Assembly (NCBI RefSeq): GCF_053078305.1
Contig: NZ_CP166879.1
Strand: one strand, 5' to 3'
DNA: 64,000 nt
The notes under the pieces were generated by a model, which saw only the letters and a program-made list of their open reading frames with translations, made no database searches and was not told the origin of the DNA. Of the stretch, positions 43,373-62,118 are shown in pieces. The translations under genes were made by a program, and so were the position numbers. The first letter of the stretch is position 1; the number at the start of each line of letters is the position of its first letter.

Positions 43373-43579
43373 ATGATCACCCCAGTTTCACTGATGGATG
43401 ACCAGATGGTCGACATGGCATTTATCACTCAACTGACCGGCCTGACCGATAAGTGGTTTTACAAACTCATCAAGGATGGTGACTTTCCTGCGCCCATCAA
43501 AATGGGCCGCAGCTCCCGATGGCTGAAAAGCGAAGTGGAAGCCTGGCTGCAGGCGCGTATTGCACAGTCCCGTCCGTAA
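43373..43579 (+). CDS. alpA: AlpA-family phage/island regulatory protein (copy 2)
   Basis: 68 aa from the ATG at 43373 with GGAGG upstream; TDKWFYKLIKDGDFPAPIKMGRSSRWLKSEVEAWL. Confidence 0.7.
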   Translation: MITPVSLMDDQMVDMAFITQLTGLTDKWFYKLIKDGDFPAPIKMGRSSRWLKSEVEAWLQARIAQSRP

Positions 43580-43659
43580 TTCTTAACCGTTCATCTGCAG
43601 CAGACGCAGTCTCCGGCCTGCCGGCGGCGTTCTGCTGCCTGTTATCCCCCGTGAGGAAT

Positions 43660-44268: not shown

Positions 44269-44589
44269 TGCCAGTTGTTTCAGGGAAGCTGGTATCCGGG
44301 CAGGGTGCCAGGGCTGACTGAACGGCCTGTCTGCCTGCCGTTTCGCTCTCCGTGCGTTCTGTCACACGCTGCACCTGAACGCCGGACTGCGGGCACGCAG
44401 ACAGGAAAGACGCAGGCTGGAACTTCTGACCGGCGGGTATCAGTTATATGCCTGTTGATTCATCACCACCACGCAGTTCCTGAGCTTTAGTTCATCACCG
44501 ATATTCATACATCTGAATATCGGTGATGAAATCCCCATAATAATCAATCATCTAAGTCTGAAGCATAATAGAGAAAAACTGCTCACCGG

Positions 44590-46143: not shown

Positions 46144-47303
46144 ATCAATATGAGGTAAAAATTTTTGTTGCTTTAATGGTTAAATAATAACCACAGTGTG
46201 TTTTGCTGCTGAAGAAAGACAAAATGAATCTGTGTGTCCCCTCCTTCCCTTCAGAGCACATCCACTATTCAAATTTTACACAACCACGTACGAACAAAAA
46301 GCATCATCCCGGGTATTGCAGATACCGGTTTCCTGCCGGGAAGAATCATAAACAGAACACCGGGAATAACGCCTTCAGGAATCCCCCCCTCCTGAAGAAG
46401 AATAAAATAAAGAAGACTACAGTTCCTGCACTGAATGCTGAGTACAATATTCTATGGACAGGATGACATATTTATAAATAACAAAAACCATTTAATACTG
46501 ATACATCAATAAAATACTTCCTCCCTGCTGACGCAGATAAAATGCACCATTTTTTCTTCAAATACTTCTGTATAATCGCCAGCCAATGATGAGAATGGAT
46601 TAAAATAACACTTCTTCGACAAACACAAAAACAGCCTTCATTTTACATCATCATCCAGTTTCAGTTAACCCCGGACGAGCGACAGCGTTTCAGTACAGGA
46701 ATTAAAAGCCAGCTTTTGCTCAGTAAAAACACACTCAACTAATAATATCTCAGCAGATATTATCCTGACCAGGACACCTCACATTACTGAATTCTCTTCC
46801 GACAGTATCACTGCACAAATAAAAAAGAACTGGATAAATATTCAGACCGGAAGAATGGTGTCACAAAAGCATTTAATCATTACGCATGACCAGGAAGGGA
46901 AACACTTAACCACATGGTATCAACAGATATCATTACGTGTGCACTCTTATAAAAAACACACAGAAGAAGTAAGATAATTATAAACGTAAATTTAATATCT
47001 CCCACTGACATCTCCCCCACAATACACTGAAAAATACTCACAGCAGTAAACACAGACACACCTGATAATCATGCAGCCGATAAATATTTTCCCCTTTACG
47101 GAGAAATCAGCCTGCTGTTTAACAATAACGGCGTATTTTCATGGAAGGAGATCACCCAGTAACGGATAAGTCCTGATCTCCTTCATGTTAATACGCAACA
47201 ATCCCATCGATTCAAAACAATTTCAGACAGATATTATCTCCGTGAATCCCCCGCCACCTTTCCGGTGCGCGGGGTTTTGTCTTTTTTCACCGGGAATACA
47301 TGT

Positions 47304-48176
47304 ATGAATCCGTCTGATGCCATTGAGGCAATTGAAAAACCGCTCTCCTCCCTGCCTTACTCGCTTTCCCGTCACATCCTGGAACATCTGCGCAAACTCA
47401 CCCGTCACGAACCAGTGATTGGCATTATGGGTAAAAGCGGGGCCGGTAAATCCTCACTCTGTAATGCACTGTTTCAGGGGGAGGTCACCCCGGTCAGTGA
47501 TGTTCACACCGGCACCCGGGAAGTACGGCGCTTCCGTCTGAGTGGCCACGGTCACAGCATGGTTATCACTGACCTGCCCGGGGTGGGCGAGAGCCGGGAC
47601 AGGGATGCAGAGTATGAGGCCCTGTACCGTGACATTCTGCCTGAACTGGACCTGGTACTGTGGCTGATTAAAGCCGATGACCGTGCCCTGTCTGTGGATG
47701 AGTATTTCTGGCGACACATCCTGCACCGGGGACATCAGCGGGTACTGTTTGTGGTGACGCAGGCCGACAAAACGGAGCCCTGCCATGAATGGGATATGGC
47801 CGGTATTCAGCCTTCTCCTGCACAGGCACAGAATATTCGCGAAAAAACGGAGGCGGTATTCCGTCTGTTCCGGCCCGTACATCCGGTTGTGGCCGTATCG
47901 GCCCGCACCGGCTGGGAACTGGATACGCTGGTCAGTGCGCTCATGACAGCGCTTCCCGACCATGCCGCCAGTCCCCTGATGACCCGACTGCAGGACGAGC
48001 TGCGCACGGAATCTGTCCGGTCTCAGGCCCGTGAACAGTTTACCGGTGCGGTGGACCGGATATTTGACACGGCGGAGAGCGTCTGTATTGCCTCTGTTGC
48101 ACGCACGGTTCTGCGTGCCGTCCGTGACTCGGTGGTCTCTGTTGCCCGCGCTGTATGGAACTGGATTTTCTTCTGA
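47304..48176 (+). CDS. yeeP: YeeP/YkfA-family GTPase
   Basis: P-loop GKSGAGKSS and DxxG-type motif (DLPGVGE); track start is GTG, ATG at 47304 preferred; gene directly upstream of flu as in CP4-44. Confidence 0.7.
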   Translation: MNPSDAIEAIEKPLSSLPYSLSRHILEHLRKLTRHEPVIGIMGKSGAGKSSLCNALFQGEVTPVSDVHTGTREVRRFRLSGHGHSMVITDLPGVGESRDRDAEYEALYRDILPELDLVLWLIKADDRALSVDEYFWRHILHRGHQRVLFVVTQADKTEPCHEWDMAGIQPSPAQAQNIREKTEAVFRLFRPVHPVVAVSARTGWELDTLVSALMTALPDHAASPLMTRLQDELRTESVRSQAREQFTGAVDRIFDTAESVCIASVARTVLRAVRDSVVSVARAVWNWIFF

Positions 48177-48289
48177 ACACTCTGCCAGGGGAAATGCCTG
48201 ATTACATTGCGTTAACCAACTGAAAACATGACACAAACCCCTCATCCCCCTCCTGTTTCTCTTGCGTGACCGCTCTGCTGTCAATAGAA

Positions 48290-48335
48290 TAAAACGATCG
48301 ATAAAACAGGTATCGATCGTTACTATCGATCGTTT
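48290..48335. promoter_or_regulatory. antigen 43 phase-variation switch region (three GATC sites; expected OxyR-binding region)
   Basis: GATC at 48296, 48315 and 48328 in the sequence ACGATCGATAAAACAGGTATCGATCGTTACTATCGATCG, about 220-250 bp upstream of the flu start. Confidence 0.6.
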
Positions 48336-48548
48336 ATAGTGGTTAATGGTCTGCGAAAAGGCAGCTGAATCTCTTCATCATGCAGAACGGAATTGCACAC
48401 AACGGACTGATACTTCTCTGGCGGATGAGAGAGGGGAAGCATTTATGTCCGGGAAAAACCACTTTATCTGACCATGCTGTTTTGTACCTGCCGGTATCCA
48501 CATTTGTGGGTACCGGCTTTTTTATTCACCCTCTGTAAGGAAAAGCTG

Positions 48549-51500
48549 ATGAAACGACATCTGAACACCAGCTACAGGCTGGTATGGAATCACATTACGG
48601 GCACCCTGGTGGTGGCCTCCGAACTGGCCCGCTCACGGGGAAAACGCGCCGGTGTGGCGGTTGCGCTGTCTCTTGCTGCTGTCACATCAGTCCCGGCACT
48701 GGCTGCTGACACGGTTGTACAGGCGGGAGAAACCGTGAACGACGGAACACTGACAAATCATGACAACCAGATTGTCTTCGGTACGGCCAACGGAATGACC
48801 ATCAGTACCGGGCTGGAACTGGGGCCGGACAGTGAAGAAAACACCGGTGGGCAATGGATACAGAATGGCGGGATAGCCGGAAACACCACTGTCACCACAA
48901 ATGGTCGTCAGGTCGTGCTGGAGGGGGGAACAGCCAGTGATACGGTTATTCGTGACGGCGGGGGACAGAGCCTGAACGGGCTGGCGGTGAACACCACGCT
49001 GAATAACAGAGGCGAGCAGTGGGTTCATGAGGGCGGGGTTGCCACCGGTACAATTATCAACCGCGACGGTTACCAGAGCGTTAAAAGTGGCGGGCTGGCA
49101 ACAGGAACCATCATCAACACCGGCGCAGAAGGCGGCCCGGATTCTGACAACTCGTACACGGGTCAGAAGGTCCAGGGAACAGCAGAATCCACCACCATCA
49201 ACAAAAATGGACGGCAGATTATCTTATTTTCCGGGATAGCCCGTGACACTCTCATTTACGCAGGTGGTGACCAGTCGGTACACGGAAGGGCCCTGAATAC
49301 CACACTGAATGGCGGTTACCAGTATGTGCACAAGGACGGACTTGCGCTGAACACGGTAATTAACGAGGGGGGCTGGCAGGTTGTTAAGGCAGGTGGTGCT
49401 GTCGGTAACACCACCATAAATCAGAACGGTGAACTGAGGGTACATGCCGGCGGGGAAGCCACTGCAGTCACCCAGAACACGGGCGGTGCACTGGTTACCA
49501 GTACGGCTGCAACCGTTACCGGCATAAACCGCCTTGGAGCATTCTCGGTTGTGGAGGGTAAAGCTGATAATGTCGTACTGGAAAATGGCGGACGCCTGGA
49601 TGTGCTGACCGGACACACAGCCACTAATACCCGCGTGGATGATGGCGGAACGCTGGATGTCCGCAACGGTGGTACCGCCACCACCGTATCCATGGGAAAT
49701 GGCGGTGTACTGCTGGCCGATTCCGGTGCCGCTGTCAGTGGTACACGGAGCGACGGAAAGGCATTCAGTATCGGAGGCGGTCAGGCGGATGCCCTGATGC
49801 TGGAAAAAGGCAGTTCATTCACGCTGAACGTCGGTGATACGGCCACGGATACCACGGTAAATGGCGGACTGTTCACCGCCAGGGGCGGCACACTGGCGGG
49901 CACCACCACGCTGAATAACGGCGCCATACTTACCCTTTCCGGGAAGACGGTGAACAACAATACCCTGACCATCCGTGAAGGCGATGCACTCCTGCAGGGA
50001 GGCTCTCTCACCGGTAACGGCAGCGTGGAAAAATCAGGAAGTGGCACACTCACTGTCAGCAACACCACACTCACCCAGAAAGCCGTCAACCTGAATGAAG
50101 GCACGCTGACGCTGAACGACAGTACCGTCACCACGGATGTCATTGCTCAGCGCGGTACAGCCCTGAAGCTGACCGGCAGCACTGTGCTGAACGGTGCCAT
50201 TGACCCCACGAATGTCACTCTCGCCTCCGGTGCCACCTGGAATATCCCTGATAACGCCACGGTGCAGTCGGTGGTGGATGACCTCAGCCATGCCGGACAG
50301 ATTCATTTCACCTCCACCCGCACAGGGAAGTTCGTACCGGCAACCCTGAAAGTGAAAAACCTGAACGGGCAGAATGGCACCATCAGCCTGCGTGTACGCC
50401 CGGATATGGCACAGAGCAATGCTGACAGACTGGTCATTGACGGCGGCAGGGCAACCGGAAAAACCATCCTGAACCTGGTGAACGCCGGCAACAGTGCGTC
50501 GGGGCTGGCGACCAGCGGTAAGGGTATTCAGGTGGTGGAAGCCATTAACGGTGCCACCACGGAGGAAGGGGCCTTTGTCCAGGGGAACAGGCTGCAGGCC
50601 GGGGCCTTTAACTACTCCCTCAACCGGGACAGTGATGAGAGCTGGTATCTGCGCAGTGAAAATGCTTATCGTGCAGAAGTCCCCCTGTATGCCTCCATGC
50701 TGACACAGGCAATGGACTATGACCGGATTCTGGCAGGCTCCCGCAGCCATCAGACCGGTGTAAATGGTGAAAACAACAGCGTCCGTCTCAGCATTCAGGG
50801 CGGCCATCTCGGTCACGATAACAACGGCGGTATTGTCCGTGGGGCCACGCCGGAAAGCAGCGGCAGCTATGGCTTCGTCCGTCTTGAGGGTGACCTGCTC
50901 AGAACAGAGGTCGCCGGTATGTCTCTGACGACAGGGGTGTATGGTGCTGCAGGCCATTCTTCCGTTGATGTTAAGGATGATGACAGCTCCCGTGCCGGCA
51001 CGGTCCGGGATGATGCCGGCAGCCTGGGCGGATACCTGAATCTGATACACAACGCCTCCGGACTGTGGGCTGACATTGTGGCCCAGGGAACCCGCCACAG
51101 CATGAAAGCCTCATCGGACAATCACGACTTCCGCGCACGGGGCCGGGGCTGGCTGGGCTCACTGGAAACCGGTCTGCCCTTCAGTATCACTGACAACCTG
51201 ATGCTGGAGCCACAACTGCAGTACACCTGGCAGGGACTTTCCCTGGATGACGGTAAGGACAACGCCGGTTATGTGAAGTTCGGGCATGGCAGTGCACAAC
51301 ATGTGCGTGCCGGATTTCGTCTGGGCAGCCACAACGATATGAACTTTGGTAAAGGCACCTCATCCCGTGACACCCTGCGCGGCAGTGCCAAACACAGTGT
51401 GCGTGAACTGCCGGTGAACTGGTGGGTACAGCCTTCTGTTATCCGCACCTTCAGTTCCCGGGGGGACATGAGCATGGGTACAGCCGCAGCCGGCAGTAAC

Positions 51501-51671
51501 ATGACGTTCTCACCGTCACAGAATGGTACGTCACTGGACCTGCAGGCCGGACTGGAAGCCCGTGTCCGGGAAAACATCACCCTGGGCGTTCAGGCTGGTT
51601 ATGTCCACAGCGTCAGCGGCAGCAGCGCTGAAGGCTATAACGGTCAGGCCACGCTGAATGTGACCTTCTGA
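48549..51671 (+). CDS. flu: antigen 43 self-associating autotransporter
   Basis: 1039 aa from the ATG at 48549; extended signal peptide MKRHLNTSYRLVWNHITGTL...ALAADTVV; beta-helical repeat passenger; C-terminal beta-barrel ending QATLNVTF. Confidence 0.9.
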   Translation: MKRHLNTSYRLVWNHITGTLVVASELARSRGKRAGVAVALSLAAVTSVPALAADTVVQAGETVNDGTLTNHDNQIVFGTANGMTISTGLELGPDSEENTGGQWIQNGGIAGNTTVTTNGRQVVLEGGTASDTVIRDGGGQSLNGLAVNTTLNNRGEQWVHEGGVATGTIINRDGYQSVKSGGLATGTIINTGAEGGPDSDNSYTGQKVQGTAESTTINKNGRQIILFSGIARDTLIYAGGDQSVHGRALNTTLNGGYQYVHKDGLALNTVINEGGWQVVKAGGAVGNTTINQNGELRVHAGGEATAVTQNTGGALVTSTAATVTGINRLGAFSVVEGKADNVVLENGGRLDVLTGHTATNTRVDDGGTLDVRNGGTATTVSMGNGGVLLADSGAAVSGTRSDGKAFSIGGGQADALMLEKGSSFTLNVGDTATDTTVNGGLFTARGGTLAGTTTLNNGAILTLSGKTVNNNTLTIREGDALLQGGSLTGNGSVEKSGSGTLTVSNTTLTQKAVNLNEGTLTLNDSTVTTDVIAQRGTALKLTGSTVLNGAIDPTNVTLASGATWNIPDNATVQSVVDDLSHAGQIHFTSTRTGKFVPATLKVKNLNGQNGTISLRVRPDMAQSNADRLVIDGGRATGKTILNLVNAGNSASGLATSGKGIQVVEAINGATTEEGAFVQGNRLQAGAFNYSLNRDSDESWYLRSENAYRAEVPLYASMLTQAMDYDRILAGSRSHQTGVNGENNSVRLSIQGGHLGHDNNGGIVRGATPESSGSYGFVRLEGDLLRTEVAGMSLTTGVYGAAGHSSVDVKDDDSSRAGTVRDDAGSLGGYLNLIHNASGLWADIVAQGTRHSMKASSDNHDFRARGRGWLGSLETGLPFSITDNLMLEPQLQYTWQGLSLDDGKDNAGYVKFGHGSAQHVRAGFRLGSHNDMNFGKGTSSRDTLRGSAKHSVRELPVNWWVQPSVIRTFSSRGDMSMGTAAAGSNMTFSPSQNGTSLDLQAGLEARVRENITLGVQAGYVHSVSGSSAEGYNGQATLNVTF

Positions 51672-51691
51672 CAGAACCATCGCCTCTCTGT

Positions 51692-51716
51692 GGTCCCGGT
51701 CATCATGACCGGGACC
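51692..51716 (+). terminator. GC-rich palindrome downstream of flu
   Basis: GGTCCCGGTCAT / ATGACCGGGACC near-perfect palindrome 20 nt after the flu stop; no clear T-tract, so terminator function is uncertain. Confidence 0.3.
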
Positions 51717-51785
51717 CGGACCGGCGCAACGGATATTCAACGCCACATTCGCTGGCATTAACAATAACATGATATTCATCACGGA

Positions 51786-54308
51786 GTGACTATGTTACAG
51801 ATAGTCGGCGCGCTGATCCTGCTGATCACAGGATTTGCCATTCTTCGCCTTTTGTTCAGAGCATTAATCAGCACGGCTTCTGCGCTGGCAGGGCTCATAT
51901 TGCTGTGTCTGTTCGGCCCGGCCTTACTGGCTGGCTATATCACCGAACGCATAACCCGGTTGTTCCATATTCGCTGGCTGGCAGGCGTATTTCTGACGAT
52001 TGCCGGAATGATCATCAGCTTCATGTGGGGACTTGATGGTAAACATATCGCGCTGGAGGCTCACACCTTTGACTCTGTGAAATTTATTCTGACCACTGCT
52101 CTCGCCGGTGGTCTGCTGGCTGTTCCCCTGCAGATCAAAAACATTCAGCAGAACGGGATCACACCAGAAGATATCAGCAAGGAAATTAACGGGTATTACT
52201 GCTGTTTTTATACTGCCTTTTTCCTTATGGCGTGTTCTGCATGCGCACCATTGATCGCGTTACAGTACGATATTTCACCGTCACTGATGTGGTGGGGCGG
52301 GTTGTTGTACTGGCTGGCTGCATTAGTGACGCTGCTATGGGCGGCCAGCCAGATCCAGGCGCTGAAAAAACTGACCTGTGCCATCAGCCAGACACTGGAA
52401 GAACAACCGGTGCTCAACAGTAAATCGTGGCTGACCAGTTTGCAAAACGATTACAGCCTTCCTGACTCACTGACGGAGCGCATCTGGCTGACGCTCATTT
52501 CTCAACGGATTTCCCGGGGAGAGCTGAGGGAATTTGAACTGGCAGACGGAAACTGGTTACTGAACAATGCCTGGTATGAAAGAAACATGGCAGGGTTTAA
52601 CGAACAGTTGAAAGAGAACCTGTCATTCACACCTGATGAACTGAAAACGCTCTTCCGGAACCGCCTGAATTTATCACCGGAAGCGAATGACGATTTTCTC
52701 GATCGTTGCCTGGACGGCGGTGACTGGTATCCCTTTTCAGAAGGTCGCCGTTTTGTATCATTCCATCACGTGGATGAGCTTCGTATCTGTGCCTCCTGCG
52801 GGCTGACAGAAGTACATCATGCCCCGGAAAATCATAAGCCGGATCCGGAATGGTACTGCTCCTCTCTTTGTCGCGAAACAGAAACACTGTGTCAGGAAAT
52901 TTATGAACGCCCTTACAACAGCTTTATTTCCGATGCAACGGCGAATGGTCTGATTCTCATGAAACTGCCGGAAACCTGGAGTACAAATGAGAAAATGTTT
53001 GCTTCCGGAGGGCAGGGACATGGGTTTGCCGCTGAACGGGGAAACCATATTGTCGACAGAGTCCGTCTGAAAAACGCACGGATCCTCGGTGATAATAATG
53101 CCAGAAATGGAGCAGACAGACTGGTCAGCGGAACAGAAATCCAGACGAAATATTGTTCAACTGCAGCCCGTAGCGTCGGTGCGGCATTCGACGGACAAAA
53201 CGGACAGTATCGTTACATGGGAAATAATGGCCCCATGCAACTGGAAGTCCCCCGTGATCAGTATGCCGGCGCTGTTGAAACCATGAGGAATAAGATCCGC
53301 GAAGGTAAAGTACCCGGTGTAACCGATCCCGCAGAAGCGTCCCGGCTGATTCGTCGGGGACATCTGACTTATACTCAGGCCCGTAATATCACCCGGTTCG
53401 GGACCATCGAATCGGTCACTTATGATATTGCCGAGGGGTCGGTTGTCAGTCTGGCGGCCGGAGGGATCAGTTTTGCCCTGACGGCATCGATCTTCTGGCT
53501 CAGCACCGGCGATCGCGATGCTGCCCTGCAGACAGCTGCTGTCCAGGCAGGAAAAACCTTCACCCGCACACTGGCTGTCTACGTCACAACCCAGCAACTT
53601 CACCGGCTCACTGTTGTTCAGGGTATGCTGAAGCATATTGATTTTTCGACGGCCAGCCCGACTGTCCGGCAGGCGCTTCAGAAGGGGACCGGTGCAGGAA
53701 ATATCAGTGCCCTGAACAAAGTGATGAAGGGTACGCTGGTGACATCTCTGGCACTGGTAGCTGTCACAACCGGCCCTGACATGATCAAAATGTTGCGGGG
53801 ACGGATCTCCGGTGCGCAGTTCATCAGGAATCTTGCCGTGGCATCTTCCGGTGTGGCAGGTGGTGCTGTCGGGTCAGTGGCGGGCGGGATATTGTTCAGT
53901 CCACTGGGACCATTTGGTGCACTGACAGGGCGTGTGGTTGGCGGTGTTCTGGGGGGAATGATTGCCTCCGCTGTATCAGGAAAAATTGCCGGAGCGCTGG
54001 TTGAAGAAGATCGCGTCAAAATTCTGGCAATGATTCAGGAGCAGGTGACATGGCTTGCCGGCAGTTTCCTGCTGACCGGACATGAGATTGAAAATCTGAA
54101 CGCGAATCTGGCCCGTGTTATCGATCAGAATGCTCTGGAGATCATTTTCGCCGCCGGTATACAACAACGGGCCGCGACCAATATGTTAATCAAACCACTG
54201 GTGGTCAGTATCATCAGGCAACGCCCCGTCATGGAATATGATGCATCCCATCTCGGCAATATGGTTAACCGACTGGAAGAAGCATTACCCCCGGAGTTAC
54301 CGGCATAA
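51786..54308 (+). CDS. yeeR: inner membrane protein, YeeR-like
   Basis: 840 aa with multiple N-terminal TM helices and a Gly-rich C-terminal membrane region; position after flu corresponds to yeeR of CP4-44. Confidence 0.55.
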   Translation: MTMLQIVGALILLITGFAILRLLFRALISTASALAGLILLCLFGPALLAGYITERITRLFHIRWLAGVFLTIAGMIISFMWGLDGKHIALEAHTFDSVKFILTTALAGGLLAVPLQIKNIQQNGITPEDISKEINGYYCCFYTAFFLMACSACAPLIALQYDISPSLMWWGGLLYWLAALVTLLWAASQIQALKKLTCAISQTLEEQPVLNSKSWLTSLQNDYSLPDSLTERIWLTLISQRISRGELREFELADGNWLLNNAWYERNMAGFNEQLKENLSFTPDELKTLFRNRLNLSPEANDDFLDRCLDGGDWYPFSEGRRFVSFHHVDELRICASCGLTEVHHAPENHKPDPEWYCSSLCRETETLCQEIYERPYNSFISDATANGLILMKLPETWSTNEKMFASGGQGHGFAAERGNHIVDRVRLKNARILGDNNARNGADRLVSGTEIQTKYCSTAARSVGAAFDGQNGQYRYMGNNGPMQLEVPRDQYAGAVETMRNKIREGKVPGVTDPAEASRLIRRGHLTYTQARNITRFGTIESVTYDIAEGSVVSLAAGGISFALTASIFWLSTGDRDAALQTAAVQAGKTFTRTLAVYVTTQQLHRLTVVQGMLKHIDFSTASPTVRQALQKGTGAGNISALNKVMKGTLVTSLALVAVTTGPDMIKMLRGRISGAQFIRNLAVASSGVAGGAVGSVAGGILFSPLGPFGALTGRVVGGVLGGMIASAVSGKIAGALVEEDRVKILAMIQEQVTWLAGSFLLTGHEIENLNANLARVIDQNALEIIFAAGIQQRAATNMLIKPLVVSIIRQRPVMEYDASHLGNMVNRLEEALPPELPA

Positions 54309-54383
54309 CGGCTATTCTGCGCCTTTTACGCTTTATCACCTGATTTGTCAGTGTCATCGTCATGACTCAGAGAGGTAAATACC

Positions 54384-54839
54384 ATGATTCACCTGTTCAA
54401 AACCTGCATGATTACCGCCTTCATTCTGGGGTTAACGTGGTCTGCCCCACTCCGGGCACAGGATCAACGTTACATCAGTATACGCAATACAGATACGATA
54501 TGGCTCCCGGGAAATATTTGTGCTTACCAGTTCCGGCTGGATAATGGCGGAAACGATGAAGGATTTGGCCCCCTCACCATCACTCTGCAACTCAAAGACA
54601 AATATGGTCAGACGCTGGTGACCAGAAAAATGGAAACGGAAGCTTTTGGTGACAGTAATGCCACGCGAACCACAGACGCATTTCTGGAAACGGAGTGCGT
54701 GGAAAATGTCGCCACAACCGAAATCATTAAAGCAACTGAAGAAAGTAACGGCCATCGTGTCAGTCTGCCGTTATCGGTTTTCAATCCCCAGGACTACCAT
54801 CCACTGCTGATTACCGTTTCCGGAAAAAACGTTAACTGA
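54384..54839 (+). CDS. putative periplasmic protein
   Basis: 151 aa with N-terminal signal peptide (MIHLFKTCMITAFILGLTWSAPLRA). Confidence 0.45.
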   Translation: MIHLFKTCMITAFILGLTWSAPLRAQDQRYISIRNTDTIWLPGNICAYQFRLDNGGNDEGFGPLTITLQLKDKYGQTLVTRKMETEAFGDSNATRTTDAFLETECVENVATTEIIKATEESNGHRVSLPLSVFNPQDYHPLLITVSGKNVN

Positions 54840-54917
54840 TCCCTGAAGTCAGTTTCATGCTTCAGCCTCTGTCACAACGCGTGGCAGAGGCTTTTTATTT
54901 ATCAGGAGAAAACAGAT

Positions 54918-55151
54918 ATGCCGGGTTACACAGAGTATGTCCTGGCTGAAGGATCTTTCTCATACGGGCAGGCGGTTGCTGTCATAACCGCTTACCGCAA
55001 TGTGTTTATCCAGGATGACCCGGGAATGCATTTCCGTCGGGTTATCCGCAACGCGGAAGGTCAGCGACGCTGGCGCTGCCGGAATTCTGAACCCGATGCC
55101 GGAAAGGTGCTTAATACGCGGCTCGCCAGTGACGGTCTTCTCAGACAATAA
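54918..55151 (+). CDS. hypothetical small protein (DUF905-like island protein)
   Basis: 77 aa ORF at the position where small DUF905-type genes occur in CP4-like islands; assignment from recollection. Confidence 0.4.
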
Positions 55152-55250
55152 ACGTCATTCATTTCACCCATCAGGCCGCGTCTTCTCCGGGAGACGTGGC
55201 TTTTTCATTTATTACACCAGTAAATCTTAACCACCGATAAGGAGCAAATT

Positions 55251-56069
55251 ATGCGACTAGCCAGTCGTTTTGGTTATGCGAACCAGATACGCCGTGACCA
55301 TCCGCTGACACACGAAGAACTGATGCACTATGTGCCGGGGATTTTCGGGGAAGATAAACACACGTCCCGAAGCCAGAACTATACGTACATCCCCACCATC
55401 ACCGTACTGGAAAGCCTGCAGCGGGAAGGCTTTCAGCCATTCTTCGCCTGCCAGACCCGTGTGCGCGACCCGGGCCGCCGGGGATACACAAAACACATGC
55501 TGCGTCTGCGGCGGGCCGGAGAGATAAACGGAGAACATGTCCCTGAAATTATTCTGCTCAACTCTCATGACGGTACCTCCAGCTACCAGATGCTGCCGGG
55601 TTACTTCAGGTTCGTCTGCCAGAACGGATGCGTCTGTGGTCAGTCTCTGGGGGAAGTGCGTGTTCCGCACCGGGGAAATGTGGTGGACAGAGTCATTGAA
55701 GGGGCTTACGAGGTGGTGGGGGTTTTTGACCGGATTGAGGAAAAGCGTGATGCCATGCAGTCGCTGATTCTGCCGCCACCGGCACGCCAGGCGCTGGCAC
55801 AGGCGGCACTGACTTACCGTTATGGTGACGAACATCAGCCCGTCACCACCGCCGACATTCTGACGCCACGACGCCGGGAGGATTACGGTAAGGACCTGTG
55901 GAGTGCTTATCAGACCATTCAGGAGAATATGCTGAAAGGCGGAATTTCAGGTCGCAGCGCTAAAGGAAAACGTATCCATACCCGTGCCATTCACAGCATT
56001 GACACTGACATTAAGCTCAACCGCGCATTGTGGGTGATGGCGGAAACGCTGCTGGAGAGCCTGCGCTGA
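55251..56069 (+). CDS. YafZ-like (DUF932) protein
   Basis: 272 aa; size and position (before the antirestriction and radC-like genes) match yafZ-type genes. Confidence 0.6.
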   Translation: MRLASRFGYANQIRRDHPLTHEELMHYVPGIFGEDKHTSRSQNYTYIPTITVLESLQREGFQPFFACQTRVRDPGRRGYTKHMLRLRRAGEINGEHVPEIILLNSHDGTSSYQMLPGYFRFVCQNGCVCGQSLGEVRVPHRGNVVDRVIEGAYEVVGVFDRIEEKRDAMQSLILPPPARQALAQAALTYRYGDEHQPVTTADILTPRRREDYGKDLWSAYQTIQENMLKGGISGRSAKGKRIHTRAIHSIDTDIKLNRALWVMAETLLESLR

Positions 56070-56123
56070 TTCAGCCATTACCCTGAAAACCACGCATTTA
56101 TTTGTCCTTTAAGGAGTCATTTC

Positions 56124-56609
56124 ATGAAAACCATTTCACATAATTCCACCACATCTTCTGTTTCCGTAACCGCTGCATCAGGGAATGACCAGCCTCAGTT
56201 GGTTGCCAGCCTCGTCCCTGATGAACAGCGCATCAGCTTCTGGCCGCAGCATTTTGGCCTCATTCCACAGTGGGTGACCCTGGAGTCCCGGGTCTTCGGC
56301 TGGATGGACCGTCTGTATGAAGACTACTGCGGTGGTATCTGGAATCTGTACACCCTGAACAACGGTGGCGCATTTATGGCACCCGAACCGGATGACGATG
56401 ATGACGAAACATGGGTGCTGTTTAACGTCATGAACGGTAACCGCGCTGAAATGAGCCCGGAAGCCGCCGGCATTGCCGCCTGTCTGATGGCGTACAGCCA
56501 TCACGCCTGTCGTACAGAGAATTATGCCATGACGGTTCATTATTACCGGCTGCGGGATTATGCCCTGCAGCATCCGGAATGCAGCGCCATTATGCGCATC
56601 ATCGACTGA
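56124..56609 (+). CDS. antirestriction protein (KlcA/ArdB-like; YfjX/YafX family)
   Basis: 161 aa; acidic stretch EPDDDDDETW; canonical position upstream of the radC-like gene. Confidence 0.65.
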   Translation: MKTISHNSTTSSVSVTAASGNDQPQLVASLVPDEQRISFWPQHFGLIPQWVTLESRVFGWMDRLYEDYCGGIWNLYTLNNGGAFMAPEPDDDDDETWVLFNVMNGNRAEMSPEAAGIAACLMAYSHHACRTENYAMTVHYYRLRDYALQHPECSAIMRIID

Positions 56610-56624
56610 ATGGAGGCAGGGACA

Positions 56625-57101
56625 ATGCAGCAGCTTTCCTTTCTGCCCGGAGAGATGACGCCCGGCGAGCGCAGCCTCATTCAGCGGGCCCTGAAAACCC
56701 TGGACCGCCATCTTCATGAACCCGGCGTGGCCTTCACCTCCACCCGTGCGGCACGGGAATGGCTGATTCTGAACATGGCGGGACTGGAGCGTGAAGAATT
56801 CCGGGTGCTGTATCTGAATAACCAGAATCAACTGATTGCCGGTGAAACCCTCTTCACCGGCACCATCAACCGCACGGAAGTCCATCCCCGGGAAGTGATT
56901 AAACGCGCCCTGTACCACAATGCCGCTGCCGTGGTGCTGGCGCACAATCACCCGTCCGGTGAAGTCACACCCAGCAAGGCAGACCGCCTTATCACGGAAC
57001 GTCTGGTACAGGCACTGGGCCTGGTGGATATCCGGGTGCCGGACCATCTGATAGTCGGTGGCAACCAGGTTTTCTCCTTTGCCGAACATGGTCTGCTTTA
57101 A
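56625..57101 (+). CDS. yeeS: RadC-like JAB-domain protein (YeeS/YfjY/YkfG family)
   Basis: JAMM-type motif HNHPSG preceded by a conserved Glu; about 158 aa from the ATG at 56625. Confidence 0.8.
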   Translation: MQQLSFLPGEMTPGERSLIQRALKTLDRHLHEPGVAFTSTRAAREWLILNMAGLEREEFRVLYLNNQNQLIAGETLFTGTINRTEVHPREVIKRALYHNAAAVVLAHNHPSGEVTPSKADRLITERLVQALGLVDIRVPDHLIVGGNQVFSFAEHGLL

Positions 57102-57163
57102 CCCGTCACAACCACATCACGCTTGTTTTCACTTTTATCTTCTGTCTTCAGAGGTATCACACT

Positions 57164-57385
57164 ATGAAAATCATCACCCGTGGTGAAGCCATGCGTATTC
57201 ACCAACAACATCCGGCATCCCGTCTTTTTCCTTTCTGTACCGGCAAATACCGCTGGCACGGCAGTGCTGAGGCGTATACCGGTCGTGAAGTGCAGGATAT
57301 TCCCGGTGTGCTGGCCGTGTTTGCTGAACGCCGTAAGGACAGTTTTGGCCCGTATGTCCGGCTGATGAGCGTCACCCTGAACTGA
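57164..57385 (+). CDS. yeeT: YeeT-like (DUF987) protein
   Basis: 73 aa; position between the radC-like gene and the cbeA/cbtA pair. Confidence 0.6.
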   Translation: MKIITRGEAMRIHQQHPASRLFPFCTGKYRWHGSAEAYTGREVQDIPGVLAVFAERRKDSFGPYVRLMSVTLN

Positions 57386-57403
57386 ATCAGGACGGGCATT
57401 CAG

Positions 57404-58048
57404 ATGAGCAGAATTATCACCTCCACCGTGTATACACTGAATGAGCTATCCGCCACCGCACGGGAAAAAGCCCGCGACGGGTACCGTCAGCATCATGCTG
57501 ACAGCAACTGGTATGAAAACGTGTATGAAGACTTCAGGAAGGTCTGTGACATTTTCGGGATTGACCTCCGCCAGCGCGTTTTCCAGCTCAGCAACGGCAG
57601 GTTTATGGAAGAGCCGTGCATCTGGTTCAGCGGATTCTGCAGCCAGGGGGACGGAGCCTGTTTTGAAGGACGCTGGCACTGGCAGTCAGCAACAGCCAGG
57701 ATAATCCGGGAGTATGCCCCGCAGGACCGTGAGCTTCATCGTATCGCGGATGCCCTGCAGGCGGTGCAGAAGCGTAACTTCTGGCAACTGCAGGCTGAAA
57801 TCCACCACCGGGGACGCTACTGCCATCCGTACAGCATGGATATCACCGTCACCCGGAACAGTCCGACTGGTCAGATAATGACAACCGATGCGGAAGCCGC
57901 TGTCAGCGAAGCCCTGCGCGACCTGGCCTTCTGGCTGTACCGTCAACTGGAAAACGAGTACGACTGGCTGACCTCAGATGCCACTGTGGATGAGGCCCTT
58001 CTCATCAACGAATACACCTTTACCGAAGCCGGTCTGCGCGCCGGCTGA
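57404..58048 (+). CDS. hypothetical protein inserted between yeeT and cbeA
   Basis: 214 aa ORF with ATG start 18 nt after the yeeT stop; codon usage like its neighbours; not recognised by me as part of the canonical yeeS-yeeT-cbeA-cbtA set. Confidence 0.45.
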   Translation: MSRIITSTVYTLNELSATAREKARDGYRQHHADSNWYENVYEDFRKVCDIFGIDLRQRVFQLSNGRFMEEPCIWFSGFCSQGDGACFEGRWHWQSATARIIREYAPQDRELHRIADALQAVQKRNFWQLQAEIHHRGRYCHPYSMDITVTRNSPTGQIMTTDAEAAVSEALRDLAFWLYRQLENEYDWLTSDATVDEALLINEYTFTEAGLRAG

Positions 58049-58097
58049 CCCGTCATCGTTAAACTATCATTCACCGATTTTCTGTGAGGATTTTATC

Positions 58098-58466
58098 GTG
58101 TCAGACACACTCTCCGGGACAACGCATCCTGACGACAATCACGACCGCCCCTGGTGGGGACTCCCCTGCACAGTGACGCCCTGTTTCGGGGCACGTCTGG
58201 TGCAGGAGGGTAACCGGTTGCATTACCTTGCAGACCGCGCCGACATCAGAGGCCGGTTCAGCGATGCGGATGCATACCATCTGGACCAGGCCTTTCCGCT
58301 GCTGATGAAACAACTGGAACTCATGCTCACCAGCGGTGAACTGAATCCCCGCCATCAGCATACCGTCACGCTGTATGCAAAAGGGCTGACCTGCGATGCC
58401 GATACCCTGGGCAGTTGTGGTTACGTGTATATCGCCATTTATCCGACACCCGGAACGAAAACATAA
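58098..58466 (+). CDS. cbeA: CbeA (YeeU) antitoxin of the CbtA/CbeA system
   Basis: 122 aa from the GTG at 58098 with GAGGA upstream; begins [24 protein letters not shown], matching YeeU as I recall it. Confidence 0.85.
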
Positions 58467-58555
58467 ACCACCAGAATAAACCTCTGCTACTGCCCGGTGC
58501 ACCACAGCACCATTCTCCTCAAAATTTAATCGCTCATATCAGGAAAATCTTCATT

Positions 58556-58933
58556 ATGAAAACATTACCCGACACACACGTACGGGCGGCATCGCGCTGC
58601 CCGTCTCCGGTTGAAATCTGGCAGACACTGCTCACCCGACTGCTGGACCAGCACTACGGCCTCACGCTGAATGACACACCGTTCGCCAATGAACGTGTGA
58701 TTGAGCAGCATATTGAGGCAGGCATTTCACTGTGTGATGCGGTGAACTTTCTCGTGGAAAAATACGCGCTGGTACGAACTGACCAGCCAGGATTCAGCGC
58801 CTGTACCCGCTCTCAGTTAATAAACAGCATCGATATCCTCCGGGCTCGCCGGGCAACAGGCCTGATGACCCGCGACAATTACAGAATGGTAAATAACATT
58901 ACCCAGGGTAAGCATCCGGAGGCGCAACAATGA
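58556..58933 (+). CDS. cbtA: CbtA (YeeV) toxin
   Basis: 125 aa from the ATG at 58556 ([30 protein letters not shown]...), matching YeeV. Confidence 0.85.
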
Positions 58934-59418
58934 AACTGGCCCTGACACTGGAAGCCGACAGCATTAACGTGCAGGCACTGAACATGGGGCGCATTGTCGT
59001 TGACGTCGATGGCATTGAGCTCGCTGAACTGATTAACAAAGTCGCTGAAAACGGTTATTCACTCCGTGTGGTGGACGACTCCGACCAACAGTCAACCTGC
59101 ACACCACCACCGTTAACAACCCTTACCGGCATACGCTGCAGCACCGCACATATCACGGAAACAGACAACGCCTGGTTGTACTCGCTGTCACACCAGACCA
59201 GTGACTTCGGCGAATCAGAATGGATTCATTTTACAGGTAGCGGATATCTGTTACGTACCGATGCGTGGTCATACCCGGTTCTGCGGCTTAAACGCCTGGG
59301 GCTGTCAAAAATGTTCCGCCGTCTGGTTGTCACACTTATCCGGCGTTATGGCGTCAGTCTCATTCATCTGGATGCCAGCGCTGAATGCCTGCCGGGTTTA
59401 CCCACTTTCGACTGGTAA
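58930..59418 (+). CDS. yeeW: YeeW-like protein
   Basis: 162 aa; ATGA overlap with cbtA; position matches yeeW. Confidence 0.5.
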
Positions 59419-59429
59419 CCAGAAACAAC

Positions 59430-59627
59430 ATGAAATCATTAACCACTGAAACAGCGCTGGATATCCTCATTGCGTGGCTGCAGGACAATATCGACTGCGA
59501 ATCGGGAATTATCTTTGACAACGATGAGGATAAAACGGATTCGGCAGCACTGTTGCCCTGTATCGAACAGGCCCGGGAGGATGTCCGTACTCTTCGTCAT
59601 CTGCAGCTTCTGCACCAGAACCGGTAA
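59430..59627 (+). CDS. hypothetical small protein
   Basis: 65 aa from the ATG at 59430; typical small island-end ORF. Confidence 0.35.
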   Translation: MKSLTTETALDILIAWLQDNIDCESGIIFDNDEDKTDSAALLPCIEQAREDVRTLRHLQLLHQNR

Positions 59628-59711
59628 ATATCACTCACCAGACTTCATTCCACTGACGCCAGCCTGAACAGGGCTGGCGTTTTCATTTATCTGCAAAAAG
59701 GAATATCGATT

Positions 59712-60578
59712 ATGTCAGGTATCACAATCTCCCGTCCTGAAGTGGTCAACGGGCATACGGACGTTATCTGTTCCACCTCAATCGGACACATTCTGGCTGT
59801 ACGAAAGACCACACTGATGCAAATCGACACACTTATCCGGCAACTGACAGAAATCTCAGCAATGACAGAAAGTATTGGAGGTAAAACCGCCCCGGACTGG
59901 GCCATAAAACAGAATTTTCGCTGCGGTTGCTGGCTGATGGAGAAACCCGAAACAGCAATGAAAGCCATTACCCGGAATCTTGACCGCGAAATCTGGCGTG
60001 ACCTGATGCAACGTTCCGGGATGCTGTCATTAATGGATGCACAGGCACGTGATACATGGTACCGGTCACTGGAATACGATAATTTTCCGGAAATCAGTGA
60101 AGAGAATATACTGAGTACGTTTGAGCAGCTACACCAGAATAAGGATGAAGTGTTTGAGCGTGGGGTCATCAACGTCTTCAGGGGACTGAGCTGGAATTAC
60201 AAAACCAACTCACCCTGTAAATTTGGCAGTAAAATTATCGTCAACAACCTGGTGAGGTGGGACCGGTGGGGGTTTCATTTTATCACCGGGCAACAGGCAG
60301 ATCGACTTGCCGATCTGGAAAGAATGCTACACCTGTTCAGCGGCAAACCGATCCCCGACAACCGGGAAAACATCACCCTTCGTCTGGATGATCATATCCA
60401 GTCTGTTCAGGGTAAAGAGAACTATGAAGACGAGATGTTCAGTATTAAATACTTTAAGAAAGGCTCAGTACACATCACGTTCAGGAAACCAGAACTGGTT
60501 GACAGGCTTAATGATATTATTGCCAGACACTACCCGGAAGCCCTGGCAAGCACAGTGAACAAAAGCCGCAAGGCATAA
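59712..60578 (+). CDS. DUF4942-like protein (island-end family)
   Basis: 288 aa; family commonly follows cbtA/yeeW in CP4-like islands; assignment from recollection. Confidence 0.55.
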   Translation: MSGITISRPEVVNGHTDVICSTSIGHILAVRKTTLMQIDTLIRQLTEISAMTESIGGKTAPDWAIKQNFRCGCWLMEKPETAMKAITRNLDREIWRDLMQRSGMLSLMDAQARDTWYRSLEYDNFPEISEENILSTFEQLHQNKDEVFERGVINVFRGLSWNYKTNSPCKFGSKIIVNNLVRWDRWGFHFITGQQADRLADLERMLHLFSGKPIPDNRENITLRLDDHIQSVQGKENYEDEMFSIKYFKKGSVHITFRKPELVDRLNDIIARHYPEALASTVNKSRKA

Positions 60579-60649
60579 AAGAGGTATTTTACAATTCGCG
60601 AATATTAACTATTATTAATTGATAGCAATCAATCGGCGAGAAAATCACC

Positions 60650-60913
60650 ATGCCTACCAGTGTATCCCTCAGTCCTTACTTTGAAACGTTTATCCGCGAA
60701 CAAATAGAAAGTGGTCGGTATAACAATACAAGTGAAGTCATTCGTGCCGGACTTCGTGCTCTGGAAGAACGGGAACAGCAGATAAAGCTTGAATCACTCC
60801 AGAGCGCCGTTACCGCAGGCATCAACAGCGGTGAAAGTAAAAGTGCTGAAGAGGTATTCGGGCGACTGACGCACAAATACAAAAAGATGGCAGAAGGTGA
60901 ACAGCCAATATGA
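60650..60913 (+). CDS. parD: ParD-family type II antitoxin
   Basis: 87 aa; ribbon-helix-helix-type N-terminus (SLSPYFETFIREQIESGRYNNTSEVIRAGLRALEE); ATGA overlap with the toxin gene. Confidence 0.75.
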   Translation: MPTSVSLSPYFETFIREQIESGRYNNTSEVIRAGLRALEEREQQIKLESLQSAVTAGINSGESKSAEEVFGRLTHKYKKMAEGEQPI

Positions 60914-61236
60914 AACTGACTGTTTCACCATTAGCAGAACACGATCTTGAAGCTATAGGTGACTGGATCGCTCAGGATAATCCTGTCCGTGCAATCAGTT
61001 TTACCGAAGAGCTTTACCAACAATGTCTGTTGATAGCCGAATCGCCAGTACTCTACAGAGAAAGACCCGAATTAGGGGCTGGGATCAGAGGTTGTTCGTA
61101 TGGTCGTTACCTTCTGCTGTTCAGGGTACTGGATACTGAAGTTCGTATCGAACGTATCGTTCATGGTTCCCGGGATATCAACAGGGTACTTGCAGAGCCA
61201 GACGACAAACCATCAGATCATTTCTGGCAGCCATAA
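60910..61236 (+). CDS. parE: ParE/RelE-family type II toxin
   Basis: 108 aa; ParE-like; translationally coupled to the upstream antitoxin. Confidence 0.75.
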   Translation: MKLTVSPLAEHDLEAIGDWIAQDNPVRAISFTEELYQQCLLIAESPVLYRERPELGAGIRGCSYGRYLLLFRVLDTEVRIERIVHGSRDINRVLAEPDDKPSDHFWQP

Positions 61237-61480
61237 ACAAAATCTGTGCGTTAACGCTCCCTAACACAGGTAGCCAGGTATTTTATAAATCTCTGTATTT
61301 TGTTGTTACTTCGATTCCGCAATTCAGCATATCGAACCAGACAAAATGATTACAGCAAAGCACAAAAAAGAGGGATTATAGCGTCAAAAGAATTCGAATT
61401 GCACATGGGGGCCTCATTGGTGGCCTCGAAAACAACAAAGACAAAACAATCAATACAAAACAATTGGTTATATAACCAGT

Positions 61481-61503
61481 TTCATTCCGAGTCCGGGCAC
61501 CAA
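61481..61503 (+). repeat. 3' remnant of tRNA-Phe (pheU), putative island attachment-site repeat
   Basis: ATTCCGAGTCCGGGCACCA at 61484-61502 matches the last 19 nt of E. coli tRNA-Phe; the upstream sequence is not tRNA-like; it lies 617 bp before the cadC start, the pheU-cadC spacing I recall for K-12. Confidence 0.6.
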
Positions 61504-62118
61504 ATTCATATAAACGGACCTCCACGGAGGTCCGTTTTTCGTTTCAGGACGCCACGATTTAAGCGTTCTGCCTCCAAATCAATTCTACCGATCTCAACCA
61601 GATTCTCCCCACATCACCAGTAATTTGCGGGCATATCCCAATTCGGGAAAATTAGTTCCTGAGCTATAGCACTGACTGACGTGAAATGTCGTGCGGCCCC
61701 GTGATGCTGTTGAACGTCAAATGACGTCATCAGGAGCGTAACGCATCCATAAAGCACAACACCGGTCTGAACGGCGACTGATGAGATTTTCTGAATGAGA
61801 ACAAAGAGAAATGTATCAGTCCGCTTGCTCATGCAAAGACTAACAATCCATTAAAATAGTAAGCGCTCCGGACAATTTTCCATGGATTATTTTCTGAACA
61901 TTTTTCTTTGGCAAAGATGATGAATTTTGATGGTAAGGAATATTACTTCTGGTTCTCAGTAAAATCCTTTCGTAATACCATGTAATCAAGAAGTTTATGG
62001 CTGGTAAAAATAACGTCTTGCATTCACCAATAATATGTAAATAAACCCATCTATAGATGGTAAAAATAGGTTGTGGCAATTATCATTGCATCATTCCCTT
62101 TTCGAATGAGTTTCTATT

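What the first reader, a model, noticed from the sequence alone, without database searches (positions are those of the whole stretch)
61441..62118. Island boundary: displaced 3' end of pheU next to cadC
Only the last 19 nt of tRNA-Phe are present (61484-61502), at the spacing from cadC that I recall for the intact pheU gene in K-12. Everything to the left, at least 61 kb, is therefore inserted at pheU; the reconstituted tRNA and integrase should lie beyond the window start. Together with a sci-1-type T6SS this resembles the EAEC pheU island, but with microcin and CP4-44-like modules added.
Basis: partly seen in the sequence, partly recalled or inferred. Interest (0 to 1): 0.5.

Follow-up and report, generated by a model that had tools for sequence, protein, structure and literature searches.

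The report
Right end of a pheU island
This is the ordinary right-hand junction (attR) of a large mobile genomic island inserted in the E. coli tRNA-Phe gene pheU next to cadC, a well-described kind of boundary found in many sequenced strains.

Summary
Window 61484-61502 is the last 19 nt of E. coli tRNA-Phe. It is unique in the window, and no tRNA gene is present. It lies 616 nt upstream of cadC, the same spacing as in K-12. Similarity to K-12 starts at the first base of the 19-mer and runs at about 99% into cadC. Everything upstream is foreign.

This is the attR junction of a tRNA-Phe genomic island of the published "19-bp direct repeat" class. The same junction (ParDE, arm, 19-mer, cadC) is in 160 of 5,426 complete E. 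coli genomes. In three of them I reached the other end, and each has dicD, an intact pheU and an integrase there. The same island end also sits at pheV, and similarity there stops exactly after the CCA.

The window is 100% identical at both ends to GCA_000736735.1 contig JPQG01000001.1. I could not reach that island's left end.

Two refinements:
- The 616-nt spacer is not plain intergenic DNA. It is the decayed left end of an older P4-type island (terminator, leader and the yjdQ integrase relic).
- The island is a mosaic. Its T6SS, microcin and CP4-44-like cargo occurs at pheV and selC in other strains.

Already known; low interest.

The parts
1..61483 (.). Genomic-island DNA absent from the K-12 pheU locus. 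It holds the sci-1-type T6SS (TssA 667-2265, TssM 2265-5654, Tle1 7794-9476, VgrG 9473-11992, TssH 12923-15619, TssC 20011-21579). It also holds the microcin H47 (mch) module at about 23.8-40.0 kb and a CP4-44-like module (YfjI 44590-46143, Ag43 48474-51671, yee genes to 60578).
   Evidence: NCBIfam hits. PGAP annotation of near-identical DNA in strain 04-00955. Similarity with K-12 starts only at 61481-61484. GC content ranges from 35.5% to 57.7% along the window.
59712..60578 (+). DUF4942 gene, the last gene of the CP4-44-like (yee) module.
   Evidence: ORF. PGAP and Pfam names in relatives.
60650..60913 (+). parD antitoxin.
   Evidence: TIGR02606, 96.9 bits against a cut-off of 46.2. Pfam ParD_antitoxin in the identical source contig.
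60910..61236 (+). parE/relE-family toxin, the last gene of the island.
   Evidence: PGAP name. Pfam ParE_toxin. TIGR02385 scores 24.3 bits, below its cut-off of 27.9.
61237..61483 (+). Non-coding right arm of the island (the attR arm, called 'type B' here), AT-rich at 37.7% GC.
   Evidence: Found in 1,113 of 5,426 genomes. Its last 172 nt are 94% identical to ABU 83972 at 3401537-3401708, which ends 19 nt before the published GI-pheV end at 3,401,727.
61484..61502 (+). The displaced original 3' end of pheU: the 19-bp attR core and direct-repeat copy.
   Evidence: In TUM18780 the repeat between attL and attR is exactly these 19 bp. Copies of the same island end at pheV stop matching exactly at 61502.
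61503..61616 (+). Native pheU downstream sequence: the terminator hairpin (61512-61537 plus T-run) and a leader. It is homologous to the tRNA-to-integrase leader of P4-type tRNA-Phe islands.
   Evidence: Terminator scan. Window 61484-61616 is 95.5% identical to the attL of EAEC 042. The same sequence follows the intact tRNA in the attL of 2013C-3181, RM10410 and ABU 83972.
61666..61859 (+). yjdQ: a frameshifted relic of a P4-type integrase gene. The first ~11 codons are joined to the last ~63 codons, with about 1 kb of the gene lost from the middle.
   Evidence: tblastn with the 042 integrase gives IALTDVKCRAA against MALTDAKIRAA, RDAVERQM..RIHKAQHRSERRLM, and DFLNENKEKCISPLAHAKTNNPLK*. PGAP calls it a tyrosine-recombinase pseudogene in relatives. 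K-12 annotates yjdQ (b4654) at the matching position.
62119..63657 (+). cadC, the first core-chromosome gene to the right of the island.
   Evidence: 512-aa ORF. PGAP name and Pfam Trans_reg_C plus CadC_C1 in relatives. 98.9% identical to K-12.

Best explanation
Window 61484-61502 is the attR core of a genomic island integrated by site-specific recombination into the 3' end of pheU.

How it works. A tyrosine integrase of the P4 family recombines the element's attP with the last ~19 bp of the tRNA gene. The element supplies a replacement 3' end, so the tRNA stays intact at the far (integrase) end. The original 3' end, with its own terminator, is pushed to the distal end of the element. That distal end is what the window shows, abutting cadC.

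What is shown:
- The fragment, its uniqueness in the window and the exact similarity break.
- The conserved island arm.
- The same island end at both pheU and pheV.
- Intact pheU plus integrase at the other end in three relatives that share this right end.

What is inferred: that this genome also has pheU plus an integrase at its left end.

Two refinements. First, the DNA between the 19-mer and cadC is the decayed left end of an older P4-type island: terminator, leader and the integrase relic yjdQ, as in K-12. The site has therefore been used at least twice, and the present island sits in tandem upstream of that relic. Second, the island is a mosaic. Window 1-57385 is 98.4-99.6% identical to islands at pheV in other strains, and the same cargo lies at selC in another. 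Window 58556-64000 is 98.8% identical to the right end of pheU islands. The switch falls in the yeeU/cbtA region.
For: - Fragment and chance.
- K-12 spacing and break in similarity.
- Terminator.
- Same 2-kb junction at 80% coverage or more in 160 of 5,426 complete genomes, best 99.5%.
- Arm conserved in 1,113 genomes and ending 19 nt before the published GI-pheV end in ABU 83972.
- Published attR classes (23-bp and 19-bp; TTTCATTCCGATTCCGGGCACCA in CFT073-type islands): PMC11537424. Direct repeats of 22 bp reported at pheU and pheV: PMC6174562.
- Complete relatives: TUM18780 has dicD, pheU, integrase, 19,557 bp, ParDE, 19-mer and cadC, with a direct repeat of exactly 19 bp. 2013C-3181 has 107 kb. 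RM10410 has about 97.5 kb.
- EAEC 042: same gene order, 117 kb between pheU and attR.
- Four draft genomes carry the same island end at 99.6-99.9% identity up to exactly window 61502, then the pheV terminator and yghD/gsp.
- Relic of the older island.
- A living tandem version (ParDE, arm, 19-mer, terminator, intact 421-aa integrase) in GCA_025988525.1, 98.1% identical over window 60535-61616.
- Mosaic structure.
Against: - The window stops inside the T6SS cluster, so attL, the intact tRNA and the integrase of this genome are not seen.
- Walking left along the source contig (JPQG01000001.1) added only about 19 kb. A 100%-identical proxy contig added about 9 kb more.
- No complete genome in the collection carries the whole mosaic. 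The best match is 93.7% over window 54000-61500.
- Two different integrase families, 43% identical to each other, are found opposite this type of attR in relatives. The cognate integrase is therefore unsettled.
Confidence: 0.9

Rival explanations
1. Composite origin. The junction is a true attR, but the 61 kb to its left did not arrive with it. A resident pheU island with the ParDE/19-bp right end exchanged its body with a T6SS-microcin island. The exchange went through homologous recombination in the shared CP4-44-like (yee) module, or through tandem integration followed by an internal deletion. On this reading the integrase at the left end and this attR need not be a cognate pair.
For: - Window 1-57385 is 98.4-99.6% identical to the island of strain 04-00955, which lies at pheV and ends in the other attR type (22 of 23 nt, different arm, no ParDE).
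- The same cargo lies next to setC/yicL, at the selC locus, in STEC2018-553.
- Window 58556-64000 is 98.8% identical to the RM10410 pheU island end.
- Between the two stretches, 57386-58555 matches neither.
- Tandem arrays exist at this site.
- A small, simple island with this attR has a 394-aa integrase. It is only 43% identical to the 421-aa integrase found opposite the same attR in large islands.
Against: - The whole right-hand 16.6 kb, switch region included, recurs at 99.3-100% identity in many draft genomes at both pheU and pheV. The mosaic is therefore old and has since moved or been inherited as a unit.
- This rival is compatible with the main explanation rather than opposed to it.
Confidence: 0.35
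2. Chromosomal rearrangement. Recombination between the oppositely oriented islands at pheV (or selC) and pheU inverted the segment between them. The DNA to the left of the window would then lead to pheV or selC, not to pheU.
For: - The island body matches islands at pheV or selC best.
- Strain 95-3322 shows a rearranged neighbourhood: tyrB, IS elements, CP4-44-like module, cadC, with no pheU in the 44 kb upstream.
Against: - EAEC 042 has the same T6SS-to-cadC order within an intact pheU island.
- The DNA just left of the window in the source contig and its proxy (IreA, YadA-like, OmpA) is syntenic at 98.8% with the pheU island of 2013C-3181, which starts at dicD, pheU and integrase.
Confidence: 0.06
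3. The 19-mer is a chance match, or the stump of a pheU gene truncated by a deletion or an IS element. On this reading it is not a recombination site.
For: The T-arm and acceptor end are short, and related sequences occur in other tRNAs.
Against: - No match appeared in 100 shuffles even with 3 mismatches allowed.
- The flank is 99% identical to the K-12 pheU downstream region.
- The break falls at the published attR position.
- The same arm plus 19-mer sits at pheV, with similarity ending exactly after CCA.
- No IS element lies at the junction.
Confidence: 0.01

Closest known systems
tRNA-Phe genomic islands of E. coli (GI-pheV and GI-pheU) with a P4-type integrase, 19-bp attR class (PMC11537424)
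   Same: The partial tRNA-Phe 3' end serves as attR. The sequence TTTC|ATTCCGA(G/T)TCCGGGCACCA and the ~170-nt arm before it are shared (94% identical to ABU 83972). A flu/yee (CP4-44-like) module lies at the right end.
   Different: This one is at pheU, not pheV. The repeat is perfect, whereas CFT073/ST131-type islands carry a G-to-T change. The last genes are ParDE rather than the DUF6088 and AbiEii-family pair seen in ABU 83972. The cargo is a T6SS plus microcin H47 rather than pap, iuc and sat.
EAEC 042 pheU pathogenicity island (117 kb; Dudley et al. 2006, as cited in PMC6730261 and PMC2808357)
   Same: The same chromosomal site and the same order: sci-1 T6SS (Tle1/Tli1), CP4-44-like module, attR, yjdQ relic, cadC. 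Identity to the window is 91-98.5% in the T6SS.
   Different: 042 lacks the ~16-kb microcin H47 module and ParDE. Its attR is the other class (TTCGATTCCGAGTCC-GGCACCA) with an unrelated arm.
K-12 MG1655 pheU, yjdQ, cadC locus
   Same: The 19 nt, the terminator, the yjdQ integrase relic and the 616-nt distance to cadC are collinear and about 99% identical.
   Different: K-12 has the whole pheU gene and no island upstream of the 19 nt.
TUM18780 19.6-kb pheU island (NZ_AP023197.1)
   Same: The same ParDE, arm, 19-mer and cadC junction (99.0%). Both ends are visible and the direct repeat is exactly 19 bp.
   Different: It carries sugar-utilisation genes instead of the T6SS and microcin. Its integrase has 394 aa and is 43% identical to the 421-aa P4-type integrase of the large islands.

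Membership tests
tRNA-integrated genomic island (P4-type integrase, tRNA-Phe) | A partial copy of the tRNA 3' end at the distal boundary, as a direct repeat of the intact gene's end. | tested here: met
   The 19-nt exact copy lies at 61484-61502. In TUM18780 the repeat is exactly these 19 bp.
tRNA-integrated genomic island (P4-type integrase, tRNA-Phe) | The insert is absent from an empty-site genome, and the break in similarity falls at the repeat. | tested here: met
   The K-12 alignment becomes identical from the first base of the 19-mer. Copies at pheV stop matching at 61502.
tRNA-integrated genomic island (P4-type integrase, tRNA-Phe) | An intact tRNA gene followed by a tyrosine integrase at the proximal boundary. 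| not testable with these tools
   This lies outside the window, and the walk along the source contig fell short. The feature is met in relatives with the same right end: TUM18780, 2013C-3181 and RM10410. The 421-aa integrase has Pfam Arm-DNA-bind_3, Phage_int_M and Phage_integrase.
tRNA-integrated genomic island (P4-type integrase, tRNA-Phe) | A conserved element-specific arm next to the core, shared with other members. | tested here: met
   The arm 61237-61483 is found in 1,113 genomes. It is 94% identical to the ABU 83972 GI-pheV right arm and ends at the same offset.
tRNA-integrated genomic island (P4-type integrase, tRNA-Phe) | The ability to excise, giving attP and attB products. | not testable with these tools
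   This needs PCR or read-level evidence. The perfect 19-bp repeat is compatible with excision but does not show it.
EAEC 042-type pheU pathogenicity island | A sci-1 T6SS with Tle1/Tli1 between pheU and cadC, followed by a CP4-44-like module. | tested here: met
   The gene order is the same, and BLAST identity is 91-98.5% over the T6SS and 86-95% over the CP4-44-like module.
EAEC 042-type pheU pathogenicity island | The same attR and right arm. | tested here: not met
   042 has TTCGATTCCGAGTCC-GGCACCA with an unrelated arm and no ParDE. The window has the 19-bp class.
EAEC 042-type pheU pathogenicity island | The AggR-regulated aai (sci-2) T6SS and pic in the same island. | not testable with these tools
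   In 042 these lie between sci-1 and pheU. That part is beyond the window start. The 19 kb read further left in the source contig shows neither.

The most novel reading that the evidence does not exclude
The 19-bp attR with its arm may be the footprint of a second tRNA-Phe integrase family, the 394-aa type seen in TUM18780 and EC1515. Large islands that pair a 421-aa P4-type integrase at attL with this attR would then be fusions of two elements. These would include this island if its left end resembles 2013C-3181, and also the CFT073/ST131-type GI-pheV. Such fusions would arise by tandem integration followed by deletion between repeated yee modules. Their two ends would not be cognate, which would lock the fused island into the chromosome.
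Probability: 0.3. Interest if true: 0.3.

Novelty: already known. Interest (0 to 1): 0.1.

Why it matters
The junction fixes the right edge of the island and shows that the cad operon is core chromosome. It also shows that pheU has been used at least twice, since an older integrase relic lies between attR and cadC. The island's T6SS, microcin and adhesin cargo moves among the pheU, pheV and selC sites. This is useful for annotating the genome and for typing islands. It adds nothing new in principle: the repeat class, the site and the mosaic behaviour are all described in the literature and are present in hundreds of public genomes.

Tried and rejected
- ARAGORN and Rfam on the region found no tRNA and nothing meaningful.
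- I looked for an older, decayed attR between yjdQ and cadC. The best 19-mer had 7 mismatches, which is within background.
- Repeat search in the arm gave only short, weak repeats that I do not interpret.
- I searched the 5,426 complete genomes for one with the whole arrangement of T6SS, microcin, ParDE-attR and cadC. None was found. The best hits were 91% coverage at 96.9% identity for window 39001-64000 and 93.7% identity for 54000-61500.
- I tried to reach the left end of the island in the source contig by exact-protein look-ups. Two steps worked, and a third reached only the proxy contig UNQI01000008.1. Jumps using the integrase, AraC and IbrB-like proteins of 2013C-3181 returned other genomes only, because those proteins are too widespread.
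- The ParE assignment by NCBIfam alone falls below the cut-off (24.3 against 27.9 bits). It rests on the Pfam and PGAP names in identical DNA.

Full report
**Observation.** The + strand at 61484-61502 reads ATTCCGAGTCCGGGCACCA. These are the last 19 nt, CCA included, of the 76-nt E. coli tRNA-Phe gene as read in TUM18780 and K-12.
- The pattern occurs once in the 64-kb window even with three mismatches allowed, and never in 100 dinucleotide-preserving shuffles.
- ARAGORN finds no tRNA gene in the whole window. An Rfam scan of 61000-62200 at a permissive threshold gives only noise. So the fragment is real and is only a fragment.
- The cadC ORF starts at 62119, 616 nt after the CCA.
- In K-12 MG1655, pheU is at 4362551-4362626 (-) and cadC starts at 4361934, which is also 616 nt.
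- In a pairwise alignment the two sequences are unrelated upstream of the 19-mer. From its first base to cadC they are about 99% identical.
- The pheU terminator hairpin, 61512-61537 plus a T-run, is retained.

**What the junction is.** A 2-kb query across the junction (60600-62600) is covered at 80% or more in 160 of 5,426 complete E. coli genomes, best 99.5%. In those genomes PGAP annotates DUF4942, ParD, ParE, a tyrosine-recombinase pseudogene and cadC.
- The 247 nt between the parE stop codon and the 19-mer form an AT-rich non-coding arm. This arm is found in 1,113 genomes.
- The last 172 nt of the arm are 94% identical to ABU 83972 at 3401537-3401708. That stretch ends 19 nt before the published right end of the ABU 83972 pheV island at 3,401,727.
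- The pheV-island survey PMC11537424 lists two main attR classes: a 23-bp class (TTCGATTCCGAGTCCGG-CACCA) and a 19-bp class (TTTCATTCCGATTCCGGGCACCA). The window has TTTC followed by ATTCCGAGTCCGGGCACCA, which is the 19-bp class without the G-to-T change.
- A second paper reports 22-bp repeats at the ends of pheU and pheV insertions (PMC6174562).

**Both ends in relatives.**
- TUM18780 carries a small, complete island with the same right end: dsbD, dicD, tRNA-Phe, a 394-aa integrase, sugar-utilisation genes, a CP4-44-like module, DUF4942, ParDE, the 19-mer, yjdQ and cadC. The island is 19,557 bp and the direct repeat is exactly 19 bp.
- 2013C-3181 has dicD, tRNA-Phe and a 421-aa integrase 107 kb from the same attR. 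RM10410 has the same about 97.5 kb away.
- In EAEC 042 the intact pheU and integrase lie 117 kb from attR, matching the published island size. The gene order next to cadC is the same as in the window: sci-1 T6SS, CP4-44-like module, attR, yjdQ, cadC.
- Four draft genomes carry the window's right-hand island DNA at 99.6-99.9% identity. In them similarity stops exactly at window 61502 and continues into the pheV terminator and yghD/gsp.
- The same island end at two identical tRNA genes, breaking at the same base, is the signature of site-specific integration. It rules out a deletion stump.

**The spacer is an older island's relic.**
- Window 61484-61616 is 95.5% identical to the sequence that follows the intact tRNA in the attL of EAEC 042. 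The same terminator-plus-leader follows the tRNA in the attL of 2013C-3181, RM10410 and even the pheV island of ABU 83972.
- Further on, 61666-61698 encodes IALTDVKCRAA, against the integrase N-terminus MALTDAKIRAA.
- Window 61700-61859 encodes, with one frameshift and one stop codon, the last ~63 residues of the integrase, ending ...NNPLK*.
- This is the K-12 pseudogene yjdQ.
- So the pheU, terminator, yjdQ arrangement of K-12 is the left end of an ancient P4-type island whose integrase lost about 1 kb internally. The present island integrated into the tRNA upstream of that relic.
- A living version of this tandem layout exists in GCA_025988525.1: DUF4942, ParDE, arm, 19-mer, terminator, then an intact 421-aa integrase and its island. 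It is 98.1% identical to window 60535-61616.
- I found no older attR between yjdQ and cadC.

**Mosaic structure.**
- Window 1-57385 is 98.4-99.6% identical to the island of strain 04-00955. That island lies at pheV and ends in the 22/23-nt attR followed by the pheV terminator and kps. NCCP 13963 has the island next to yghD/gsp.
- In STEC2018-553 the same T6SS-microcin-CP4-44 cargo lies next to setC/yicL, the selC locus.
- Window 58556-64000 is 98.8% identical to the pheU island end of RM10410. Window 57386-58555 matches neither.
- Relative to EAEC 042 the window has an extra ~16 kb (23.8-40.0 kb) carrying microcin H47 genes, plus ParDE.
- GC content ranges from 35.5% to 57.7%.
- The island is therefore assembled from modules that recombine between islands at different tRNA sites. 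'Inserted at pheU' holds for location but not necessarily as a single event.

**Source and the unreached left end.** Window 1-12265 and 47404-64000 are each 100.000% identical to GCA_000736735.1 contig JPQG01000001.1.
- Look-ups extended the sequence 19 kb to the left: tssF/G/J/E, VasL, a helicase, an IS66 element, an ascorbate-type PTS, LacI and the start of IreA.
- A second contig, 100% identical to JPQG over the 11.6 kb where the two overlap, continues with IreA, a YadA-like adhesin and OmpA. This stretch is syntenic at 98.8% with the pheU island of 2013C-3181.
- The tRNA and integrase of this genome were not reached.

**Integrases.**
- The 421-aa integrase has the P4-type domain set (Arm-DNA-bind_3, Phage_int_M, Phage_integrase). 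The identical protein occurs next to both dicD (pheU) and yqgA (pheV).
- The ABU 83972 and 042 integrases are 97% identical to each other. Each is 43% identical to the 394-aa integrase of TUM18780.
- The 394-aa type lies next to tRNA-Phe in 530 genomes.
- Both types occur opposite the 19-bp attR. This leaves open whether the large islands are fusions with non-cognate ends. That is an inference, not a result.

**Verdict.** The finding is real and correctly interpreted as the attR boundary of a pheU island. It is ordinary: the site, the repeat class and the mosaic nature of such islands are published, and the same junction is in many public genomes.

Noticed in passing
window 61503-61909: The pheU-to-cadC 'intergenic' DNA is the decayed left end of an older P4-type island. 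It has a terminator and leader 95.5% identical to the attL of EAEC 042, then an integrase relic (yjdQ) that keeps about 11 N-terminal and 63 C-terminal codons.
   Followed up: yes
window ~23800-40000: A low-GC (35-41%) microcin H47 module: mchF exporter at 27040-29160, a HlyD partner, mchB/mchI, a glycosyltransferase at 36529-37653 and an esterase-like gene at 35113-36387. It sits between the T6SS and the CP4-44-like module and is absent from the EAEC 042 pheU island.
   Followed up: partly
window 1-57385; L002-L005, L016: The same T6SS, microcin and CP4-44 cargo (98.4-99.6% identical) lies at pheV in strains 04-00955 and NCCP 13963 and at selC in STEC2018-553. Each has a different right end.
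   Followed up: partly
window 57386-58555 (ORF 57404-58048): The switch region between the two parental similarity blocks. It contains a 214-aa ORF with no NCBIfam or Pfam hit that most complete-genome relatives lack. The exact protein is nevertheless indexed in 594 blocks of the public assembly collection.
   Followed up: partly
window 60650-61236: A ParD/ParE toxin-antitoxin pair forms the last two genes of the island, directly before the attR arm. ABU 83972 has a DUF6088 and AbiEii-family pair at the same position.
   Followed up: partly
L069 (GCA_025988525.1), reverse strand ~19500-20700: A tandem island array: DUF4942, ParDE, arm and 19-mer, directly followed by an intact 421-aa integrase and a second island.
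   Followed up: yes
L019/L020 (ABU 83972), L017 (TUM18780): The 19-bp attR arm occurs opposite two integrase families that are only 43% identical (394 aa and 421 aa). In ABU 83972 the sequence after the intact pheV at attL is the pheU-type terminator.
   Followed up: partly
L007/L010 (strain 95-3322): cadC is preceded by a CP4-44-like module with the 22-nt attR. Upstream of that come IS elements and then tyrB/sucA-like genes, with no pheU or dicD. This suggests a large rearrangement in that strain.
   Followed up: no
window 7097-7774; L031, L030: The window has one tli1 immunity gene after tle1. Strain 04-00955, EAEC 042 and contig UNQI01000008.1 have two tandem copies, which explains the ~0.8-kb length difference seen.
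   Followed up: no
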